Shown here piece after piece: positions 1-14,233 of a stretch of DNA of 19,722 bases (the stretch's first letter is position 1; the number at the start of each line of letters is the position of its first letter). The notes below the pieces were generated by a model. That model had not been told where the DNA came from, did no database searches, and saw nothing but the letters and a program-made list of their open reading frames with translations. The stretch lies in the IMG/VR virus record IMGVR_UViG_2537562019_000014. The stretch is one strand, 5' to 3'. The position numbers and the translations under genes were made by a program. This DNA comes from a virus. Taxonomy: Duplodnaviria; Heunggongvirae; Uroviricota; Caudoviricetes.

Positions 1-37
1 ATTATACGCGCGTATAATGGGGAATTATGTGCTGATT
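1..37. repeat. Partial telRL (protelomerase target palindrome telO plus right flank), truncated by the window start
   Basis: Bases 1-20 ATTATACGCGCGTATAATGG are a perfect palindrome matching the recalled N15 telO core minus its first 2 bp; the following GGAATTATGTGCTGAT resembles the N15 telRL right arm; lies directly upstream of a TelN-like gene. Confidence 0.7.
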
Positions 38-200: not shown

Positions 201-2102
201 ATGAGCAAAGTAAAAATCGGTGAATTAATAAACTCACTTGTTAGCGATGTTGAGTCAATAGATAACTCTGACCGTCCTCAAGGGGAGAAAACAAAAAAAA
301 TAAAGGCTGTTGCATTAAAATTTAAAAATGCATTATTTAATGACAAGCGAAAGTTTAGGGGGAAAGGATTAGAAAAAAGAATTACAGCCAACACATTCAA
401 TGCCTATATGAGCAGGGCCAGAAAACGGTTTGATGATAAACTTCATCATAGCTTTGAAAAAAATATACATCGCCTATCTGAAAAGTATCCTTTATATAAT
501 GAGGAGCTATTGTCATGGCTTTCTCTACCTGCTGCCGATATTCGCCAGAGAATGTCAGCTTTACAGGCAAAATTAAAATTAATTCTCCCTCTATCAGAAG
601 ATTTATCTAATATCAGAATTGGCGATAACAAAAGTCATAATAAGTTATTGAAATTATCAAATAAATATAAAGAGTGGCAATTCGCCATTTCTGATTTAAC
701 TAGCGATAACTGGAAAGATAAGCGCGATTATTTATATAAATTACTACAGCAAGGATCTGCCTTACTTGAGGAGTTGAATCAGCTAAAAGTTAACCATGAG
801 ATTCTCTATCATCTTCAACTAAGCCCTGCCGAACGTGCATCTATCCAGCAACGATGGGCGGACGTTCTGCACAATAAGAAACGTAACGTGGTGGTCATTG
901 ATTACCCTAAATATATGCAAGCTATTTACGATATTATAAATAGCCCTGCTACATTAAATAATCTAAACACTCGTTCAGGTATGGCTCCTTTGGCATTTGC
1001 ACTTGCTGCATTGTCAGGAAGACGAATGATTGAGATTATGTATCAAGGTACATTTACTGTTTCTGGTAAGTATACCGTTGATTTTTTAGGCCAAGCTAAA
1101 AAAAGAACTTCTGATGATATAACCAGAAAAATATATACATTATGCGAAGCAAAAACATTTGTTTATTTAATAAATGTACTTCGCTCATGCCCAGCAGCAT
1201 CTGATTTTGATGATGTCGTTAAAGGTTATGGAGATAACGACACACGCTCTGAAAACGGACGTATTAATGCCATATTAGCAAAGGCTTTTAACCCGTGGGT
1301 TAAATCATTTTTCAAAGATGACCGCCGTGTTTATAAAGATAGTCGTGCTATTTATGCCCGTATTGCGTATGAAATGTTTTTCCGCGTAGATCCTCGTTGG
1401 AAAAACGTAGATGAAGATGTTTTCTTTATGGAAATTTTAGGCCATGACGATGAAAACACTCAATTACACTATAAGCAATTCAAGCTGGCCAACTTCTCAA
1501 AGACATGGAGGCCAAATACTGGAAACGAAAATACCAGGCTGGAAGCATTGCAGCAGCTTGATGACGAAATGCCTGGATTCGCCAGAGGAGATGCCGGGGT
1601 TCGTCTGCATAACACAGTTAAGCAGCTGGTAGAGCAGGACCCCTCTATAAAAATCACGAACAGCACTCTAAGAGCGTTCAAATTTAGCCCAACAATGATT
1701 AGTCGATACCTGGAATTTGCTGCTGATGCTCTGGGGCAATTTGTTGGCGAAAACGGACAATGGCAACTGAAAATAGATACTCCAGAAATCGTTATGCCTG
1801 ACGAAGAAGAACTGGAAGCAATACCTGAACTGGCGGATGAATTGTCAGAGGATGACGATCTGGATGACGACGAAATTGAGATAGAGGAAGAGGAAGAGGA
1901 AGAGGAAGAGAGCGTAGAAGAACAGCAACCGCCTGCACCTTCTTCGCCTGTATCTAAGCCGGTATTTAAGCCGGTGAGAAATATTGGTGATGGCTCATAC
2001 GTTGTTGAGTTTCATTATAATGGCCAGAATTATGCGTGGTCCGGCAGTGCAAACAGCCCCATGTCAGCAATGCAGTTAGCATGGCTGACATATTTCGGTT
2101 AA
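201..2102 (+). CDS. telN: Protelomerase (telomere resolvase) TelN
   Basis: 633-aa ORF with AGGAGAGG RBS; length and N-terminal sequence (MSKVKIGELIN...) closely resemble N15 TelN (631 aa) as recalled; acidic C-terminal linker (run of E encoded by GAGGAA repeats); adjacent to the telO palindrome. Confidence 0.85.
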   Translation: MSKVKIGELINSLVSDVESIDNSDRPQGEKTKKIKAVALKFKNALFNDKRKFRGKGLEKRITANTFNAYMSRARKRFDDKLHHSFEKNIHRLSEKYPLYNEELLSWLSLPAADIRQRMSALQAKLKLILPLSEDLSNIRIGDNKSHNKLLKLSNKYKEWQFAISDLTSDNWKDKRDYLYKLLQQGSALLEELNQLKVNHEILYHLQLSPAERASIQQRWADVLHNKKRNVVVIDYPKYMQAIYDIINSPATLNNLNTRSGMAPLAFALAALSGRRMIEIMYQGTFTVSGKYTVDFLGQAKKRTSDDITRKIYTLCEAKTFVYLINVLRSCPAASDFDDVVKGYGDNDTRSENGRINAILAKAFNPWVKSFFKDDRRVYKDSRAIYARIAYEMFFRVDPRWKNVDEDVFFMEILGHDDENTQLHYKQFKLANFSKTWRPNTGNENTRLEALQQLDDEMPGFARGDAGVRLHNTVKQLVEQDPSIKITNSTLRAFKFSPTMISRYLEFAADALGQFVGENGQWQLKIDTPEIVMPDEEELEAIPELADELSEDDDLDDDEIEIEEEEEEEEESVEEQQPPAPSSPVSKPVFKPVRNIGDGSYVVEFHYNGQNYAWSGSANSPMSAMQLAWLTYFG

Positions 2103-2113
2103 AGCATACAGTA

Positions 2114-2137
2114 AAGGCACCGAATTAACGGTGCCTT
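2114..2137 (+). terminator. Stem-loop after telN, possible intrinsic terminator
   Basis: AAGGCACCG-AATTAA-CGGTGCCTT perfect 9-bp stem 11 nt after the telN stop, followed by a weak GTTGTGTG tract. Confidence 0.4.
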
Positions 2138-2273: not shown

Positions 2274-2459
2274 CTATTTATTGGTGATTTCTGCTGGCTT
2301 TAGCTGCGCGGATAACTGCTCAAGTTTTTGAACTGCCAGTTCAAAATGCGCGGGTAAAGCATTGCAAATATCATTCGCCACAAACCACGGATCGCCGTTA
2401 ATCATCACTACACGTACCTGATGCTCTTCCTGAAAGGAAAAGACTGCTAACGCGCTCAT
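2274..2459 (-). CDS. Small protein with Bro-N-like N-terminal motif (61 aa), possibly a truncated antirepressor-family remnant
   Basis: Segment VRVVMINGDPWFVANDICNAL matches the conserved Bro-N core pattern; protein is much shorter than a full Bro-N domain. Confidence 0.4.
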   Translation of the reverse strand: MSALAVFSFQEEHQVRVVMINGDPWFVANDICNALPAHFELAVQKLEQLSAQLKPAEITNK

Positions 2460-2689
2460 TCAGCCTCCTTACCGTGCAGCAATTGCGACGAGAGCGATGC
2501 TGAATATCCCTGTGCTTCGTGTGTTAACTCACACGCAATTTGAAGGAGTTTCCCTGCTTCTGAGAGATAAATCGACGCCTCACAGCTGGAGACTGTCCGA
2601 TGGGCTGATGATACGAGCGCATAGACCTGAGCCAGACGTTCATCCAACGATTCCAGCAGGCCAACAGTGTTCATTTTTACCTGATTCAT
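2456..2689 (-). CDS. Hypothetical protein (77 aa)
   Basis: ORF with GGTGG RBS; start overlaps upstream stop and its stop overlaps the downstream start (ATGA at both junctions). Confidence 0.5.
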   Translation of the reverse strand: MNQVKMNTVGLLESLDERLAQVYALVSSAHRTVSSCEASIYLSEAGKLLQIACELTHEAQGYSASLSSQLLHGKEAE

Positions 2690-2850: not shown

Positions 2851-3147
2851 GGTATGCACTCCGTTTAATTGGTCGTGCTACCACCAGAGTTCTCACGCTC
2901 TTGAATGGTGGTAGCCCAAGCGGGGGTGAGAATACCGGCAAACGAAGAAACCGGCCTGACCGAAGTCAGCCCCGCCTGAGCCACCATAAATCGGATATGC
3001 GCAGGTATATACACACAAAAAAACACGCTGGCGCGTGTTGTGCGCTTCGTTTATCCGGGTTCTCACGCCCGGCTGCGGAATTTGCCGCAGCGGAGTAACT
3101 TTACCGTCAAAACGACGCACACGTCAATAATTTGCAAAGACATTTTA

Positions 3148-3167: not shown

Positions 3168-3228
3168 ACAGGTGTTTTTATAGTTTGCTTGAACGAGTGA
3201 TCAGAAGTTGATCGTTAATCAAAGGCCA

Positions 3229-4271: not shown

Positions 4272-4463
4272 TTACTCCCCGTTCACCGAAAAATCACGAT
4301 AGAAACGTTTCCACATACGATAAGTCTGCGCGAGTTGTTCACCACGAAACATCGCCTTCCTGGCCTTCATGTTTTCCTTGTGAGACTTTCGATCTATGAA
4401 CCAAAACCATTGCTGGAACACACAAAGCAAGAGACACAAAGATAATATCCACTGATTACCCAT
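4272..4463 (-). CDS. Small membrane protein (63 aa) translationally coupled to repA
   Basis: ATG at 4463 overlaps the last codons of repA (TATGGGTAA); hydrophobic N-terminus WILSLCLLLCVFQQWFWFI followed by a basic tail; stop lies 4 nt before the next start. Confidence 0.45.
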   Translation of the reverse strand: MGNQWILSLCLLLCVFQQWFWFIDRKSHKENMKARKAMFRGEQLAQTYRMWKRFYRDFSVNGE

Positions 4464-7400
4464 AGAAAGCGCCCTGCTCTTCGTAGCTGCATGGGCTATT
4501 CCCGGTAATGTATTCACGTAACCGCCGCAGTTCATTGCTGGATAAGTGATCCATGAACTCTGTGAGGTACAGAGATGCAAACGTCATAGCTATGCTGGCT
4601 GATGACCATGATGACATAGTGGCCAGCTCCTCACCGGAAAGCGCACTCATCGCCCAGGACTCAGGTACAACCACTGGCAACACAGCCAAAGCCTCAGAAA
4701 TTACTGAATGAGGGGCGTTTTGAACCTGCTCGTTTGTGGATCGCGTTTTATCATCCATATATATATTGAGATCCAAATCGCGATCCATTTCGATGGCGGT
4801 CTTCTCGGCTTTACGCGTTTTCAGGGTTAGGCCATCTTTCTGACGCTGAGCAAGAATATCCAGCATAAATGCCGCTGATTCAGGCTCAACAAAACGCAAG
4901 GTTGGACGCTTATCGCCGTCTCTGCCGCGACGTTTACCTGTTTTAAGGCCAAGAGAGTCGCAAATGTTTTTAAACAACGCTTCCGGCACTTTAGGCTTCC
5001 CTTTTGGCGTCATAAAACCACCAATGTGCAGAACGTTATTCAACAGGTCACGGCGTTCGGCTGTCATGAGGTTATCTCGAGCAAATTTGAGACGCTCCTG
5101 AGTCGCCTCGCCGGTCATAGTCTCAGGGTTGATACCGCAGTCGATAAAGTACTGCCGGAGAGTTGCTGATTTAAGCGCATAGAAACCGCGCGCCCCGACT
5201 TCAACAGTAGGAGTAGCTTTTACCTTGTGATCGATTATTCCAGGGAATTTAGTTTTAAAGACATCATCAGCCTGCTCGCGAGTCATCGCGGTCACTACAA
5301 AATATTGCCACTGTCCCGCCTGACGGTATGCGTAGGTAAAATTGATGGCTGCTTCTTCCCGGTCGTAACGACGAGCTGTTACCTCATCTAAAAGCATTGT
5401 TTCATAGCGGCGAACTTTGTCTCGAGCACCATCGAAATAGAATTTCAGCGTGCCTTCTTCAACCGGTAGTTTCAGTTCGTTTTCAATATCCCAGCGGACA
5501 AGTTTTGCCTGTTCTTCAAGCGTCAGCGCGCGTTTTTTTAGCAGTTCTTCACGCTCTGATTCTTGTGGAGTTTCTGTATTGAGATGCAGATCCAGTGTCT
5601 GTTCCCACACAATATCCCGCGCTTCTTTACGCAGCTCTTTACCGATATCATTCGCAGCATAATCGGTGGCCAGCGGCGATACCTTATAACCGTCGCTGTG
5701 CATGATGCAGATCATGTTGCTGGCGTAGTCGTTACGCGCAGTCGCTTCAATAGCGGCTGCTTTAATTTTCATCCTGGTAAAGTCGGTATTGGCCACCCCC
5801 ATTGATATACGGTCGCCATCGAAAACGACATCCGTCAGTTCACCGTTCATACCTGCGGTAGCAAGCAATGCCTGGGCGAATGCTCGTTCTATTTTTTGCG
5901 GGTCAGTTTCACGTTTTGCACGAGCTTTATCAAAGCCGATAATAAATTCTTTTGCTGTACGGTCGCGGCGTAGCATTTGCACTGCGTCGCTGGGTACAAC
6001 TTCACCACAGAACATGCCGAAATGACGGTCAAAATGTTTTTGCTCAATCGACACGCCGGATGAAATAGACGGGCTATAAATCAGGCCGTCGTATTTTTTG
6101 ACCATCTTTTTCGGTTGATTGGTAAATGCTTCAACTTCTGGCTCTGGTTTGTTTTTCTGGTTTACACACAGAAATTTCTTACCAGGAAAATGCATTCTCA
6201 GGGTGGCTGTCACATCTTCTGCAAAGGTGGAGCTGTCGGTGGCCAACATGATTTTTTCGCCATCCGATACAGCTTTCACCACCTCGGTCATGATGCGATC
6301 TTTTTCTGTATAAAAAACCCGGATTGGCTCACCTGTTTCGCGGTTGCGAACATCAACAGGTAATTCAATTACGTGGATCTGCAGCCATGCCGGTAAACCT
6401 AGTTCTTCACGGCGTTTCATAGCCAGTTCAGCCAGGTCAACCAGCAGATCATTCGCATCAGCATCCACCATGATTGGGTGTTGTTCTGTTCTGGCCAGCG
6501 CGTCAATTAGCGTATTGAATACAGCCACCGGGTTTTCCATAGCCCGACCGGAAAGAACGGCACGTAGCCCTTGTGTGGCCTCGTCAAAGCCAAAATAGTC
6601 GTGCTGGCGCATCAACGGTTGCCAGCAGTTTTTAACAATCGAGTTTATGCAGATGGTCAGTTTACTGGCGTATGGAGCCATTTCCTGATAGCCAGGATCC
6701 TGATAGTGCAGGATATCGGCTTTTACACCTTTTCCTTCTGTCATCATTTCCCACAGGCCGCCAATAAGGGAGACACGGTGAGCAACAGAGATACCACGTT
6801 CTGAGCTATGCATTAACGGTCGTAACAATCCAGTAGATTTGCCGGAACCCATACCAGCACGGACGATGACTATCCCCTGTAGTGATTGCACGTACTTCAG
6901 GACATCATCGGTCATTACCGAAGTTTCAAAACGCTTATAGGTGATATGTTGAGGGCGTTTATTGGGATCAGTTATGCGTTCGCTGAAAGAGCGCGGAGCC
7001 TGGGCAATACGGCACTTTTTATTCAGGCGACGGGCAATGTGGTCTTTTACCGTAGCGCGATAGATATTTTCCAGTCCCATTTCACGCAGAACGATGCAGA
7101 ACATGTTAAATAAATCTGACGGACTGTTAGGAACCGGACAGGTTAGCATGCCAATATCCACCGCTCTCAGCAGCTCTTTGGCAAAAGTACGACGGTTATC
7201 CCGCTTAATTGTCTTCAGGCGGTTGAGCGTCAGAGATAGCAAATCAGTACCAGTTTTCAGGCGGTTTGCTGTTGCAAATAGTTGACGTGCTGTTTCACGA
7301 AGTCCACGTAGTTTGTGCAGGTCGTTGAAGTCACTGCACTCCATTTGCGGATCGTCTTCAAAAGTTGGATAGACGCAGCGGACATCGTTGAATTTCGATA

Positions 7401-8451
7401 AGATTTCATAGCCAGTCCGCAGGCCGGTATTCCCTTTTCCTTCTGTGGCAGATTTCCGGTCATTATCCAGTGCGCAGGTGATTTTTGCCGCCGGGTACAT
7501 GTTTACCAGTTGTTCCACAACATGAACCATGTTGTTAGCGGATACAGCGACAACCACAGCGTCAAAGCGTTTATCTTTTTTCGTGGCAAGCCAGATGGAT
7601 GCACCAGTAGCAAAACCTTCTGTAACAGCGATGTTTTGCGCCCCTTTCAGCTCACCGATAACAAAGCAGGCACCGACGAAATCGCCGCTGGTTACTGCGC
7701 TGGTCTGGTATTTTCCACCTTGTTTGTCGATTCGCTGCCAACCCACAATACGACCATCGTAACGACCGTCCAGGTGAGCCAGAGGGATAGCCATATACGT
7801 GGTTGGCCCCCTGCTCCATTTTGCGCTGTCGTGACTGGTCACGCGACGCACATCACACGAATTAAAAACGTCACGAATACCTTTTTTAATCGCATATGGC
7901 CATGAGCCGTCTTCTGCAGGAGCATGTTCCCACGCGCTGTGAAATGCCAGCCATCCCAGCAAACGTTCATGGTCAATTTGGTTGTTTTTCAGGTCATTAA
8001 TTCGTTTTTGTTCTTCACGGCGACGACGTGCTTCGGCCTGACGTTCTATTCTTGCCCGTTCTTCTTCCGGTTGTGCGACCACGGTCGCATTATTCCGTTG
8101 TTGCTCACGGCGATATTCAGAAAACAGGAAGGAGAAACCGCTCCATGAGCCAGCATCGCTGCCTTTATGGACGAAGTTAATGAACGGGTAATCAATCCCT
8201 TTGCTGTGTTCCAGCCGGGAGTAAATTTCTACGCGTCCTTTGAGGCTCTTCTCGAGAGCTTCTGGAGATGTTTTATTGTATGAAGAGTAACGCTCAACAC
8301 CCCCGCGAGGGTTGAGTTGGATGTTGTCGGAACAGGCAGGCCAGTTGATACCAGCCATCTGTGCCAGCTCGGTTAGTTCATCCCGTGCTGCTTCAATTAG
8401 CGAGAACGGATCGCTGCCAAAGCGATCCGCATAGAAATCGTTTAATGTCAT
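4456..8451 (-). CDS. repA: Replication protein RepA, multidomain primase-helicase
   Basis: 1331-aa ORF; Walker A motif GMGSGKST; TOPRIM-like primase region; size and position match N15 RepA (about 1324 aa) located between telN and cB. Confidence 0.85.
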   Translation of the reverse strand: MTLNDFYADRFGSDPFSLIEAARDELTELAQMAGINWPACSDNIQLNPRGGVERYSSYNKTSPEALEKSLKGRVEIYSRLEHSKGIDYPFINFVHKGSDAGSWSGFSFLFSEYRREQQRNNATVVAQPEEERARIERQAEARRRREEQKRINDLKNNQIDHERLLGWLAFHSAWEHAPAEDGSWPYAIKKGIRDVFNSCDVRRVTSHDSAKWSRGPTTYMAIPLAHLDGRYDGRIVGWQRIDKQGGKYQTSAVTSGDFVGACFVIGELKGAQNIAVTEGFATGASIWLATKKDKRFDAVVVAVSANNMVHVVEQLVNMYPAAKITCALDNDRKSATEGKGNTGLRTGYEILSKFNDVRCVYPTFEDDPQMECSDFNDLHKLRGLRETARQLFATANRLKTGTDLLSLTLNRLKTIKRDNRRTFAKELLRAVDIGMLTCPVPNSPSDLFNMFCIVLREMGLENIYRATVKDHIARRLNKKCRIAQAPRSFSERITDPNKRPQHITYKRFETSVMTDDVLKYVQSLQGIVIVRAGMGSGKSTGLLRPLMHSSERGISVAHRVSLIGGLWEMMTEGKGVKADILHYQDPGYQEMAPYASKLTICINSIVKNCWQPLMRQHDYFGFDEATQGLRAVLSGRAMENPVAVFNTLIDALARTEQHPIMVDADANDLLVDLAELAMKRREELGLPAWLQIHVIELPVDVRNRETGEPIRVFYTEKDRIMTEVVKAVSDGEKIMLATDSSTFAEDVTATLRMHFPGKKFLCVNQKNKPEPEVEAFTNQPKKMVKKYDGLIYSPSISSGVSIEQKHFDRHFGMFCGEVVPSDAVQMLRRDRTAKEFIIGFDKARAKRETDPQKIERAFAQALLATAGMNGELTDVVFDGDRISMGVANTDFTRMKIKAAAIEATARNDYASNMICIMHSDGYKVSPLATDYAANDIGKELRKEARDIVWEQTLDLHLNTETPQESEREELLKKRALTLEEQAKLVRWDIENELKLPVEEGTLKFYFDGARDKVRRYETMLLDEVTARRYDREEAAINFTYAYRQAGQWQYFVVTAMTREQADDVFKTKFPGIIDHKVKATPTVEVGARGFYALKSATLRQYFIDCGINPETMTGEATQERLKFARDNLMTAERRDLLNNVLHIGGFMTPKGKPKVPEALFKNICDSLGLKTGKRRGRDGDKRPTLRFVEPESAAFMLDILAQRQKDGLTLKTRKAEKTAIEMDRDLDLNIYMDDKTRSTNEQVQNAPHSVISEALAVLPVVVPESWAMSALSGEELATMSSWSSASIAMTFASLYLTEFMDHLSSNELRRLREYITGNSPCSYEEQGAFYG
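4737..4787. other. Candidate replication origin inside the 3' end of repA
   Basis: 9-bp inverted repeat TGGATCGCG / CGCGATCCA flanking a (TA)5 AT-rich core; three GATC sites within 50 bp; N15 ori is known to map within the 3' part of repA. Confidence 0.3.
8072..8089. repeat. SopB-type centromere-like palindrome, copy 1 (inside repA coding sequence)
   Basis: TGTGCGACCACGGTCGCA, 7-bp inverted arms with AC centre; closely resembles the F sopC SopB-binding repeat TGGGACCACGGTCCCA; one of four copies in the window. Confidence 0.55.
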
Positions 8452-8696: not shown

Positions 8697-9293
8697 TCAT
8701 CTACCCTCAACCATGAATGATTTGATCGTTCCGACTATTTGGTGAACAAATTCAAGATCGCTTTTCCTGAAGATAGCGCGTTGTGAGTTTGTTCCATCCA
8801 GATAGTAATTTTCATCATCAAAACGGGCTAGGCGCTGGATAGTGATATTTCCTGCAGTATCACGAACCAGAACATCCTCGCCGGGGACCAGTTCCAGCGC
8901 AGAATCGACCAGGAGAAAATCGCCTGGCTGATAGTTTCCCTGCGTAAGATTGCTGATAGTTAACGCATACACAGTATTGCGCTGGCTGATGAATGGCAGG
9001 AATCGCTCAGTATTTGGAACCTGTCCCGGCTTCCACTCTTCATCAGGCCCACTTTCAGTTGTGCCAATAACAGGAATGCGATCAGGGTCATATTCTGTCC
9101 CATATAGCACCCAATGTACTGGCTTGCGTAAGCACTTAGCCAGGGCAATACCTATCTCCAGTGACGGCATTACGTCGCCACGTTCTAAGTTTTGGACGCC
9201 TGCTATAGAGATATCGACAGCCTCAGCAACTTCTCGCAACGTCAGCTTCATCTCTAAACGGCGTGCTTTCAGTCGTTCGCCTCGTGTTTTCAT
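8697..9293 (-). CDS. cB: CI-like prophage repressor (HTH N-terminal domain, LexA/CI-type C-terminal domain)
   Basis: 198-aa ORF divergent from a cro-like gene with operator palindromes between them; N-terminal XRE-type HTH (LTLREVAEAVDISIAGVQNLERG); position matches N15 cB. Confidence 0.8.
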   Translation of the reverse strand: MKTRGERLKARRLEMKLTLREVAEAVDISIAGVQNLERGDVMPSLEIGIALAKCLRKPVHWVLYGTEYDPDRIPVIGTTESGPDEEWKPGQVPNTERFLPFISQRNTVYALTISNLTQGNYQPGDFLLVDSALELVPGEDVLVRDTAGNITIQRLARFDDENYYLDGTNSQRAIFRKSDLEFVHQIVGTIKSFMVEGR

Positions 9294-9315: not shown

Positions 9316-9357
9316 TTATAGCTGGCTATAAAATTTATTTATTATAGCTGGCTTTAA
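9316..9357. promoter_or_regulatory. Operator pair in the cB-cro divergent promoter region
   Basis: TTATAGC-TG-GCTATAA (9316-9331), a 16-bp near-palindrome, and a second imperfect copy TTATAGCTGGCTTTAA (9342-9357), 26 bp apart centre to centre. Confidence 0.5.
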
Positions 9358-13073: not shown

Positions 13074-13244
13074 CTGGTCACGGAGGGGTAAATGGACAAA
13101 AAGGCATTGCTTTTTGAAATGATACGAAAACGGAGCGAAAAGAGCTTTTCTGATGGTGGTGATGGGCTTTTGGAAGTGGTTGGGCGAGGCGCAGGAAGGG
13201 AACATAAGTATCGGACTACAAAGATATTTAACCAGTTAATCCAT

Positions 13245-13291
13245 TGAAAGCTGGCTATAAAATTTGAGTTTTACCCTGTAATTTTATACAG
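13245..13291. promoter_or_regulatory. Operator-like half-site plus LexA (SOS) box upstream of a small gene
   Basis: AGCTGGCTATAAAATTT (13245-13263) repeats the immB operator right half; CTGT-AATTTTAT-ACAG at 13276-13291 fits the LexA box consensus CTGT-N8-ACAG. Confidence 0.55.
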
Positions 13292-13315
13292 TATCAAATA
13301 ACCTTTTTTAATTAA

Positions 13316-13534
13316 ATGGTATTAGATTCAATGACTGAAGCACCTGTATCAACTCTTGAAGAACTCGGATCAAACCTAAAAGACATCGACGCCGTTTTGG
13401 ATCTGGTTAGCGTTGCTCTGGCTTCTCCAGAAGCCAGCTTGCATCTTGGCGAGATTTCACGACTTGTTAGTATGTCGCGGGAGATAGCTCAGAATTGCCA
13501 ACAAGTTATTGCTGTTGAGAGTTTACATCATTGA
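13316..13534 (+). CDS. Small acidic protein downstream of the LexA box; candidate antirepressor-type immA gene
   Basis: 72-aa ORF (alternative start ATG 13331); sits behind an SOS box and an operator-like motif; followed by a convergent hairpin. Confidence 0.4.
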   Translation: MVLDSMTEAPVSTLEELGSNLKDIDAVLDLVSVALASPEASLHLGEISRLVSMSREIAQNCQQVIAVESLHH

Positions 13535-13577
13535 TACACACCCCGCCCTTCCGGACGGGGTAGCGAAAAGGGTCTAA

Positions 13578-13865
13578 TCAATAGACGGCATTAATATTAA
13601 TCGTTGCACCGCATGCTTGGGCATATTTTGATAAAGTTTTCATGCTTGCCCCTAAAGGATTGCTTTCCAGGCGGCTGATAGCTGACGGGCGCAATCCCAT
13701 TCGTTCAGCCAGAGCTGACTTCGTTAAACCTGCTCTTTCCCTCATTTCGTATAACATTTCGACCATCTCCAGCTCTTTATCGGCCTCTTCATATCCTTTG
13801 ATGGCTTCTGGAGTGTTGAGAAGTTTTTCTTTTACTTCGTTAAACGGGATGCCTTTCGCTTTCAT
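13578..13865 (-). CDS. HTH (XRE-type) antitoxin, HigA-like
   Basis: 95-aa ORF with C-terminal HTH (LTKSALAERMGLRPSAISRLE); start overlaps the stop of the upstream toxin-like reading frame (TGATG). Confidence 0.7.
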   Translation of the reverse strand: MKAKGIPFNEVKEKLLNTPEAIKGYEEADKELEMVEMLYEMRERAGLTKSALAERMGLRPSAISRLESNPLGASMKTLSKYAQACGATININAVY

Positions 13866-14175
13866 CAGTTCATCTCCTTCAGGCGAGTTCTGGCGATTTC
13901 GATAGCCTTCACCGGTGTTTTCTGTGTCTTTTTTACAAATGCATGCAATAGATAAATTTCGTTACCAGTCGCGTAGGCGTACAGCGTTCTTGCGATGTTT
14001 TTTTCCCCTACTCGTATTCAAAAAGCCCTCCACCTATTACACGGCTATGGGGCATCTTCAGTTTGTTGCCTTCTTTCTCCAGTCGCTCAATTAATCTGGT
14101 CATGCGACCTCGCAAATCATCTGGTAGTTCAAGCAGTTCATCCAGTGCTGCAGGGTGGGTTATCACGTTAAACAT
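13865..14175 (-). pseudogene. HigB/RelE-like toxin (Gp49 family) disrupted by a 1-nt frameshift
   Basis: ATG 14175 with GGAGG RBS; frame stops at TAG 14008-14010 after ...GGGLFEYE; the -1 frame continues GEKNIARTLYAYATGNEIYLLHAFVKKTQKTP...; restoring one nt near 14014-14016 gives a contiguous ~103-aa toxin. Confidence 0.6.
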
Positions 14176-14233
14176 ATTATAGCCTCCATATCCATAAAAT
14201 ACACCAAAACAAGAAAACAGCGCAAATTAAAAA

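What the first reader, a model, noticed from the sequence alone, without database searches (positions are those of the whole stretch)
13245..13534. SOS box next to a repressor-operator half-site upstream of a small acidic gene
CTGT-AATTTTAT-ACAG (13276-13291) is a canonical LexA box. It lies 13 bp downstream of a 17-bp motif identical to the right half of the immB operator, and in front of a 72-aa acidic ORF. In N15 the antirepressor operon is under both CB and LexA control, so this looks like the induction switch of this element, although the downstream protein is short and unassigned.
Basis: partly seen in the sequence, partly recalled or inferred. Interest (0 to 1): 0.5.

Follow-up and report, generated by a model that had tools for sequence, protein, structure and literature searches.

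The report
SOS-controlled antirepressor gene antC of prophage
This is the DNA-damage switch of an N15-like linear plasmid prophage: a host LexA binding site guarding a small antirepressor gene (antC). The mechanism is already known from phage N15, and the only unusual feature is a nearby copy of most of a phage-repressor operator.

Summary
CTGTAATTTTATACAG (13276-13291) is the only CTGT-N8-ACAG site in the window. An exact 17-mer (13249-13265) repeats 9320-9336, which covers 12 of 16 bases of operator OR3 plus 5 flanking bases. A small acidic ORF follows.

The window is an N15-like telomere phage-plasmid. The ORF, most likely 67 aa from the conserved ATG at 13332, is the ortholog of an unannotated N15 ORF between genes 47 and 48. 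It shares position, promoter and LexA box with that ORF. This fits antC, the LexA-repressed antirepressor that inactivates the non-cleavable CB repressor (Mardanov & Ravin 2007). The promoter core and LexA box are conserved in nine lineages.

Databases still call the protein hypothetical.

The claimed CB co-control is unproven. The 16-mer TGAAAGCTGGCTATAA ranks 4th in the window as a CB site. However, it breaks the invariant T-A-N10-T-A rule and lies upstream of the -35. It is also absent from sister plasmids with an identical CB, and from N15 and phiKO2. Most relatives carrying this antC allele have a T at 13251, which breaks the exact 17-mer. Substitutions in this lineage all move towards OR3, so a weak accessory CB or Cro site remains possible (about 35%).

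The parts
13274..13293 (.). LexA (SOS) box, 20-mer CCCTGTAATTTTATACAGTA with core CTGT-N8-ACAG at 13276-13291
   Evidence: It is the only such site in the window. It is conserved in N15, phiKO2, Enterobacter and Klebsiella relatives. The approximate heterology index is about 5 on the reverse strand, within the range of working E. coli boxes (matrix recalled from memory).
13264..13269 (+). Inferred -35 hexamer TTGAGT of the antC promoter
   Evidence: I read this from the sequence. TTTG(A/C)G is invariant or nearly so in nine lineages. It is 17 bp from the -10. The pair scores 8 of 12, below the scan threshold. No transcription start has been mapped.
13287..13292 (+). Inferred -10 hexamer TACAGT, lying inside the LexA box
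   Evidence: I read this from the sequence. TATACAGTA is invariant in nine lineages. The overlap with the LexA box is the usual arrangement for repression (inference).
13332..13534 (+). antC ortholog: 67-aa acidic predicted helical-hairpin antirepressor (alternative start 13316 gives 72 aa)
   Evidence: It is 57% identical to the unannotated N15 ORF at 39604-39807 and 50% identical to phiKO2 Gp47. It lies in the same position as in N15, phiKO2 and YDC107_1. It matches phrog_6301 (E 3e-36) and phrog_10889 'anti-repressor' (E 1e-6). The AlphaFold2 model has two helices, residues 11-35 and 44-71, with pLDDT 81.5. The second ATG is the conserved one.
13245..13260 (.). OR3-like 16-mer TGAAAGCTGGCTATAA, a possible weak CB or Cro site. 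The exact 17-mer shared with OR3 spans 13249-13265.
   Evidence: It has 2 mismatches to OR3. The exact 17-mer repeat was confirmed. It ranks 4th in the window and 5th in a 46-kb relative by operator weight matrix. It is specific to one lineage.
13540..13561 (.). GC-rich hairpin between the convergent genes antC and gene 48. It is a possible terminator but has no T-run.
   Evidence: Fold. The energy z-score is only -0.86, and the terminator scan found nothing here. N15 has a different hairpin at the same place.
8697..9293 (-). cB prophage repressor, the inferred target of AntC
   Evidence: It is 77.8% identical to N15 CB. It has an HTH domain plus a sub-threshold S24-like domain. Thr and Gln align with LexA Ser119 and Lys156, in a weak alignment.
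9316..9331 (.). Operator OR3, TTATAGCTGGCTATAA. It is identical to N15 OR3 and is the source of the shared 17-mer.
   Evidence: [quoted passage not shown]

Best explanation
The locus is the antC module of an N15-like linear plasmid prophage. In the lysogen, host LexA binds the SOS box at 13274-13293. The box covers the spacer and the -10 of a weak sigma-70 promoter (-35 TTGAGT, -10 TACAGT) and keeps antC silent. DNA damage activates RecA, LexA cleaves itself, and antC is transcribed. The 67-aa acidic, two-helix AntC protein then binds the CB repressor. CB cannot cleave itself because it lacks the Ser/Lys dyad. CB is released from OR and OL, so cro, Q and repA are derepressed and lytic growth starts.

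Shown here: the sequence elements, their conservation, and the orthology to the N15 locus.

Inferred from N15 experiments and from orthology: LexA binding, the AntC-CB interaction, and the induction phenotype.

The adjacent OR3-like 16-mer is an allele-specific extra. My estimate is about 35% that it is a weak CB or Cro site that modulates the promoter. Otherwise it is a non-functional by-product.
For: - The window carries telN, repA, cB, cro and Q in N15 order and matches Ravinvirus phages and E. coli plasmid prophages.
- The ORF is 57% identical to an N15 ORF lying between gene 47 and the gene 48/49 toxin-antitoxin pair.
- In N15 only two AT-rich LexA boxes exist. One precedes the umuD-like gene 26 and the other precedes this ORF.
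- The promoter core and LexA box are conserved in nine lineages while the flanks diverge.
- Literature: antC starts N15 induction, acts on CB, and is LexA-controlled (PMC4488713, PMC3121763, PMC11652158). N15 and phiKO2 CB lack the cleavage site and catalytic residues (PMC4997575), and N15 CB is not proteolysed during SOS (PMC10432266).
- The window's CB shows Thr and Gln at the catalytic positions.
- AntC shares a PHROG family with a 77-aa immA protein and matches an 'anti-repressor' PHROG.
Against: - The primary paper (Mardanov & Ravin 2007) was not readable here. That N15 antC is exactly this ORF rests on my memory plus the LexA-box argument.
- All databases call the protein hypothetical.
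- The promoter hexamers are weak (8 of 12) and unmapped.
- No binding or expression data exist for this element.
- Identity to N15 AntC is only 57%, and CB is 78% identical, so the partner specificity is assumed.
Confidence: 0.85

Rival explanations
1. Dual lock. CB binds the OR3-like 16-mer at 13245-13260 just upstream of the -35 and, together with LexA, represses antC. Full expression would then need both LexA cleavage and falling CB occupancy, giving positive feedback once AntC starts to titrate CB.
For: - The site matches OR3 at 14 of 16 positions, with an exact 17-mer that no shuffle reproduced.
- By weight matrix it outranks the inferred OR1 and OL2, and it is the best site outside immB in a 46-kb relative.
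- The same matrix picks out a site upstream of the immA operon in both this window and N15, so it has some predictive value.
- Five derived substitutions in this lineage all move towards OR3 or its flank and none move away (my reading). My hand estimate of the chance of that is about 1e-4 to 1e-5, but the comparison was chosen after seeing the data.
- phiKO2 CB has 'rather low binding specificity' and forms tetramers and probably octamers (PMC4997575).
- In phage phi11, CI and LexA jointly control the gp07 antirepressor (PMC13492144).
Against: - The left half reads T-G-A, not T-T-A. This breaks the T-A-N10-T-A motif shared by all ten known N15 and phiKO2 operators. OR3 half-sites alone are not bound (PMC4997575).
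- The site lies upstream of the -35 (centre about -46) and does not overlap the core promoter.
- Sister plasmids with a 99.5-100% identical CB and identical OR3 and OR2 carry TGAAAATTGACCGTAA here, scoring 3-6 bits.
- N15, phiKO2, Enterobacter and Klebsiella relatives have nothing comparable at this position.
- Most relatives carrying this antC allele have T at 13251, giving 13 of 16.
Confidence: 0.3
2. The OR3-like stretch has no regulatory role. It is drift or a short gene-conversion patch in a poorly constrained region that also holds the end of gene 47. antC would then be controlled by LexA alone, as in N15.
For: - The region from -60 to -38 is the most variable part of the promoter alignment.
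- The motif is absent in group-B elements with the same CB.
- The identity extends into spacer bases that are not part of the 16-bp operator, as expected for copying rather than selection for binding.
- TGA at 13245-13247 is under coding constraint as the gene 47 stop codon.
Against: All changes run in the direction of OR3. The weight-matrix rank is high. A 13-17-bp identity between two regulatory regions of the same immunity circuit is unlikely by chance.
Confidence: 0.5
3. The site is bound by Cro rather than CB, shutting antC off once lytic growth is under way.
For: In phiKO2, Cro binds only OR3 (PMC4997575), and the motif resembles OR3 more than any other operator.
Against: Cro is the more sequence-specific of the two proteins. 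It does not bind OR3 half-sites, and it does not bind a PY54 variant that differs only in the outer bases (PMC4997575). This site has two changes in the left half. The conservation problems are the same as for CB.
Confidence: 0.1
4. The ORF is an SOS-induced gene with some other function, not an antirepressor.
For: There are no Pfam or NCBIfam assignments, no structural matches, and every database entry reads 'hypothetical'.
Against: The ORF is orthologous to the N15 locus. It belongs to the same PHROG family as the immA small protein and matches an 'anti-repressor' PHROG. The CB repressor cannot cleave itself, so it needs an antirepressor for induction (PMC4997575, PMC10432266).
Confidence: 0.05

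Closest known systems
N15 antC (LexA-repressed antirepressor of CB; Mardanov & Ravin 2007, J Bacteriol 189:6333)
   Same: Same genomic slot between gene 47 and the gene 48/49 toxin-antitoxin pair. Same -35, LexA box, -10 and start region. The proteins are 57% identical, and the partner repressor CB is 78% identical with an identical OR3.
   Different: This allele has an OR3-like 16-mer just upstream of the -35, which N15 lacks. Gene 47 is shortened by an 87-bp in-frame deletion. The C-terminal tail of the protein differs.
N15 immA small protein gp31 (AntA by position) and its homolog in this window at 2459-2689 (-)
   Same: Same PHROG families (phrog_6301 and phrog_10889 'anti-repressor'). Collinear profile match to AntC: 28% identity over 54 columns, E 5.6e-5. 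Both are small helical proteins of the same immunity circuit.
   Different: It sits in the P1-like C4 RNA / icd operon, which has a CB-operator-like site at its promoter and no LexA box. Pairwise BLAST finds no significant similarity.
Phage 186 Tum and the Gifsy prophage antirepressors GfoA and GftA
   Same: Same logic: a non-cleavable repressor is inactivated by a small antirepressor whose gene lies outside the immunity region and is directly repressed by LexA (PMC3121763).
   Different: I did not demonstrate any sequence relationship. Tum is 146 aa and has a DinI-like half.
Staphylococcus phage phi11 gp07
   Same: An antirepressor-type gene reported to be under both the phage CI repressor and host LexA (PMC13492144). 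This is the closest precedent for the dual-lock reading.
   Different: It is an unrelated phage and protein. In phi11 CI is cleavable, and Gp07 acts through Cro.

Membership tests
E. coli-type LexA (SOS) box | CTGT-N8-ACAG dyad with an AT-rich spacer | tested here: met
   CTGTAATTTTATACAG at 13276-13291. The spacer is entirely A/T.
E. coli-type LexA (SOS) box | Heterology index within the range of functional boxes | tested here: met
   About 5.0 on the reverse strand, against 0.3-9.8 for 19 known boxes. The matrix was rebuilt from boxes recalled from memory, so the value is approximate.
E. coli-type LexA (SOS) box | Overlaps the promoter of the regulated gene | tested here: inconclusive
   It overlaps the inferred -10 and spacer. 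The promoter scores only 8 of 12 and no transcription start is mapped.
E. coli-type LexA (SOS) box | Conserved at the orthologous position | tested here: met
   TGT..TT.TATACAGTA is invariant in nine lineages, including ones found by protein similarity only.
E. coli-type LexA (SOS) box | LexA binding and SOS induction | not testable with these tools
   Needs gel-shift or footprinting and reporter assays.
N15 AntC antirepressor | Sequence homology to the N15 protein | tested here: met
   57% identity over 68 aa, E 9e-18. The phiKO2 homolog is 50% identical. That this N15 ORF is antC is from memory.
N15 AntC antirepressor | Position between gene 47 and the gene 48/49 toxin-antitoxin pair | tested here: met
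N15 AntC antirepressor | Partner repressor CB cannot cleave itself | tested here: met
   Thr and Gln align with LexA Ser119 and Lys156, in a weak alignment. The S24 domain is sub-threshold. Published for N15 and phiKO2 (PMC4997575, PMC10432266).
N15 AntC antirepressor | Binds and inactivates CB | not testable with these tools
   Needs two-hybrid or pull-down assays and derepression assays.
N15/phiKO2-type CB operator | 16-bp dyad with the T-A-N10-T-A motif | tested here: not met
   The site reads T-GA-N10-TA-A. All ten reference operators have TA on both sides (PMC4997575).
N15/phiKO2-type CB operator | Scores like the known operators | tested here: met
   15.0 bits, rank 4 in the window. This is above OR1 (14.5) and OL2 (10.3).
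N15/phiKO2-type CB operator | Overlaps a core promoter | tested here: not met
   It ends 3 bp upstream of the inferred -35 (sequence).
N15/phiKO2-type CB operator | Conserved in elements with the same repressor | tested here: not met
   Group-B elements with 99.5-100% identical CB lack it.
N15/phiKO2-type CB operator | CB binding | not testable with these tools
   Needs gel-shift or footprinting.

The most novel reading that the evidence does not exclude
In one antC allele lineage of E. coli N15-like plasmid prophages, an OR3-like site has evolved next to the LexA-controlled promoter. The phage's own CB (or Cro) would then also gate the antirepressor. This would turn a simple SOS trigger into a two-input switch with positive feedback: AntC removes CB, and less CB allows more antC. 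Sister elements with the same repressor would lack this extra input.
Probability: 0.3. Interest if true: 0.45.

Novelty: new member of a known kind. Interest (0 to 1): 0.27.

Why it matters
The result gives a function to a gene that every database lists as hypothetical across hundreds of Enterobacteriaceae plasmid prophages. It also shows that AntC is a distant paralog of the small immA protein. If the OR3-like site works, it would be a natural polymorphism in how tightly prophage induction is coupled to the SOS response. That could be tested directly by comparing the three promoter variants (C, T and group B). Otherwise this is an ordinary ortholog of a described switch.

Tried and rejected
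- Reading the primary papers. Mardanov & Ravin 2007 and Lobocka 1996 are not held. Further literature searches found only secondary mentions.
- Pfam, NCBIfam and PDB sequence searches of AntC gave nothing meaningful.
- Database names are all 'hypothetical'.
- A profile search of 1.84 billion representative proteins found only 8 hits, so the family is small.
- Foldseek of the two-helix model against viral structures gave no hit with E at or below 0.001.
- The promoter scan finds no match of 9 of 12 or better at antC, and the terminator scan finds nothing after antC.
- I considered other roles for the 17-mer and rejected them because the partner hexamers are poor: an upstream promoter using TTGAAA or TATAAA/TAAAAT, an extended -10, and a leftward promoter using TAGCCA as at OR3 (for the OR3 case).
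- I considered that the C at 13251 was a long-read sequencing error. I rejected this because an independent metagenome contig that is 99.86% identical also has it.
- A scan of one genome per species found no exact copy of the motif.

Full report
**What the window is.** The ORF map shows telN (201-2102), repA (4456-8451, minus strand), cB (8697-9293, minus strand), cro and Q. A run of small rightward genes follows. The region around the finding is 92-93% identical to Escherichia phages YDC107_1 (genus Ravinvirus) and PhiR46_1. Its antC stretch (13080-13600) is 100% identical to plasmid 2 of an ETEC isolate, NZ_LR883007.1, and the two are about 98% identical over the longer aligned stretches. 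A metagenome contig is 99.86% identical over 14.7 kb. The window starts inside the telomere palindrome (ATTATACGCGCGTATAATGG). This is an N15-like linear plasmid prophage.

**Checking the observation.**
- CTGTAATTTTATACAG lies at 13276-13291 and is the only CTGT-N8-ACAG in the window.
- The bare pattern is not rare: 0.23 are expected, and 40 of 200 shuffles have at least one. The pattern alone therefore proves little.
- The 17-mer AGCTGGCTATAAAATTT occurs exactly at 9320-9336 and 13249-13265. No shuffle out of 200 gave a match.
- The gap to CTGT is 10 bp, not 13.
- The 17-mer covers operator positions 5-16 of OR3 (TTATAGCTGGCTATAA, 9316-9331) plus five spacer bases.
- The full 16-mer at 13245-13260, TGAAAGCTGGCTATAA, differs from OR3 at two left-half positions. 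Its TGA is the stop codon of gene 47 (ORF 13092-13247).
- The ORF 13316-13534 is real and acidic.

**What the gene is.**
- tblastn finds the protein in 13 phage records. All are N15-like: YDC107_1 and PhiR46_1 (76%), N15 (57%, E 9e-18, unannotated at 39604-39807), phiKO2 Gp47 (50%), and Enterobacter and Klebsiella phages.
- In N15, phiKO2 and YDC107_1 the gene sits between gene 47 and the convergent gene 48/49 antitoxin-toxin pair, as it does here.
- The N15 copy is preceded by CCCTGTGTTTATATACAGTA.
- The whole N15 genome has three CTGT-N8-ACAG sites. One has a GC-rich spacer inside the tape-measure gene. One precedes the umuD-like gene 26. One precedes this ORF.
[quoted passage not shown] It also says antC is a separate gene outside immA and immB (PMC4488713) and that AntC is a LexA-controlled antirepressor (PMC3121763, PMC11652158).
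- The primary paper was not available. I recall that antC lies between genes 47 and 48. One search leaves no other candidate.

**Conservation.** An alignment of nine lineages includes two found only by protein similarity. It shows an invariant TTTG at the -35, an invariant TGT..TT.TATACAGTA covering the LexA box and -10, a conserved GGTA, and the second ATG. The region upstream of the -35 and the leader both vary. The first ATG (13316) is CTG or CGG in other lineages, so 13332 is the likely start (67 aa). RefSeq uses that start too. An approximate heterology index of about 5 places the box among working E. coli boxes (the matrix was recalled from memory).

**The protein.**
- It has no Pfam, NCBIfam or PDB relatives.
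- Every database name is 'hypothetical'.
- PHROGs places it, N15 AntC and phiKO2 Gp47 in phrog_6301 (unknown function). All three have a weaker match to phrog_10889 'anti-repressor'.
- The family is small: 8 hits among 1.84 billion representative proteins.
- AlphaFold2 predicts a two-helix hairpin with pLDDT 81.5. It has no informative structural neighbours.
- Unexpectedly, the 77-aa protein of the immA operon (2459-2689, minus strand) belongs to the same two PHROG families. It aligns collinearly with the AntC profile (hhalign E 5.6e-5).
- That immA protein is the homolog of N15 gp31, which by position is AntA. AntC and the immA antirepressor therefore look like distant paralogs.

**The repressor.** CB is 78% identical to N15 CB. 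It has an HTH domain and a sub-threshold S24-like domain. In a weak alignment, Thr and Gln sit where LexA has Ser119 and Lys156. This agrees with published statements for N15 and phiKO2 CB (PMC4997575) and with the demonstrated lack of proteolysis of N15 CB (PMC10432266). An antirepressor is therefore required for SOS induction.

**The OR3-like site: evidence for a role.**
- I inferred the five operators of this element by comparison with N15: OR3 9316, OR2 9342, OR1 9365, OL1 8668 and OL2 8645.
- A weight matrix built from these plus the N15 operators ranks the antC-upstream site 4th in the window (15.0 bits), above OR1 and OL2. It ranks 5th in a 46-kb relative.
- The next-best sites lie upstream of the immA operon (3178-3193; N15 28576). 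This is a plausible repressor target next to the C4-type RNA, so the matrix has some predictive value.
- Outgroup comparison suggests five derived changes in this lineage. All move towards the OR3 or flank sequence and none move away. My hand estimate is that this happens by chance about 1 in 10,000 to 100,000 times, but the comparison was chosen after seeing the data.

**The OR3-like site: evidence against a role.**
- The site has G where every known operator has the T of the T-A-N10-T-A motif. OR3 half-sites alone are not bound (PMC4997575).
- It lies upstream of the -35, centred near -46.
- Among 18 IMG/VR loci, 21 plasmids and the phage records, the same CB (99.5-100% identical) and identical OR3 and OR2 occur with two antC alleles.
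  - Group A (antC 93-100% identical) carries TGAAAG(T/C)TGGCTATAA.
  - Group B (76-78% identical, including YDC107_1 and PhiR46_1) carries TGAAAATTGACCGTAA, which is not operator-like.
- N15, phiKO2, Enterobacter and Klebsiella relatives have nothing comparable at that position. N15 has only a modest 9-bit site overlapping its LexA box.
- The C at 13251 that makes the exact 17-mer is a real but rare sub-lineage variant. It is found in the window, in NZ_LR883007.1 and in one metagenome contig. It is present in 1 of 21 plasmids.

**Mechanism.** The best-supported model is the N15 one. LexA occludes the antC promoter. SOS removes LexA. AntC then titrates the non-cleavable CB, and lytic and replication promoters open. 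No rightward terminator of note lies between cro and antC. Read-through from the CB-controlled cro operon could therefore add antC transcripts after derepression (inference). The OR3-like site may be a weak extra CB or Cro input (about 30-40%) or a functionless relic (about 50%).

**Comparison and verdict.** This is an ortholog of a described switch, so it is a new member of a known kind. The cited N15 precedent for joint CB and LexA control is not borne out by the papers available or by the N15 sequence. CB control here remains a hypothesis limited to one allele lineage. Interest is modest.

Noticed in passing
window 2459-2689 (-): A 77-aa protein in the immA operon falls in the same PHROG families as AntC (phrog_6301 E 2e-36; phrog_10889 'anti-repressor' E 2e-18). 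It aligns with the AntC profile (hhalign E 5.6e-5). It is the homolog of N15 gp31, so AntC and the immA small antirepressor look like distant paralogs.
   Followed up: partly
window 2277-2459 (-): Only a 61-aa BRO-N / Ant fragment remains where N15 has the 264-aa gene 30 product. The large immA antirepressor-like gene therefore appears truncated next to telN.
   Followed up: partly
window 2904-3104 (-) and 3178-3193: Rfam finds a C4 antisense RNA (2904-2991), isrK (3018-3091) and the c4 a1b1 target (3052-3104). Together these form a P1-like C4/icd/ant operon leader. Just upstream is a CB-operator-like site, TTATAGTTTGCTTGAA (12.9-13.2 bits), with an N15 counterpart at 28576.
   Followed up: partly
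window 13865-14176 (-): The RelE/ParE-family toxin gene next to the gene 48 antitoxin is frameshifted in the window. It is intact in NZ_LR883007.1. This could be a real inactivation or an assembly error.
   Followed up: partly
window 13092-13247 (+): Gene 47 encodes 51 aa here, because of an 87-bp in-frame deletion relative to YDC107_1 (80 aa) and N15. The short form appears to travel with the group A antC allele.
   Followed up: partly
window 1-20: The window begins inside the telomere-resolution palindrome ATTATACGCGCGTATAATGG. From memory this resembles telO of N15. It lies directly upstream of telN.
   Followed up: no
window 2099-2114: TTAAAGCATACAGTAA overlaps the telN stop codon and scores 13-15 bits as a CB operator. 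Its significance is unknown.
   Followed up: no
L024 15565-15590 (N15 record 39564-39585): In N15 the right half of the antC LexA box overlaps TTATATACAGTATTAA. This sequence keeps the T-A-N10-T-A operator motif and scores about 9-11 bits, similar to OL2. The window has no equivalent.
   Followed up: no
L026 (NZ_LR883007.1) 39986-44320: The RefSeq record is annotated as circular and carries an inverted duplication of the telN-immA end plus many frameshifted genes. This looks like an assembly artefact of a hairpin-ended linear plasmid.
   Followed up: no
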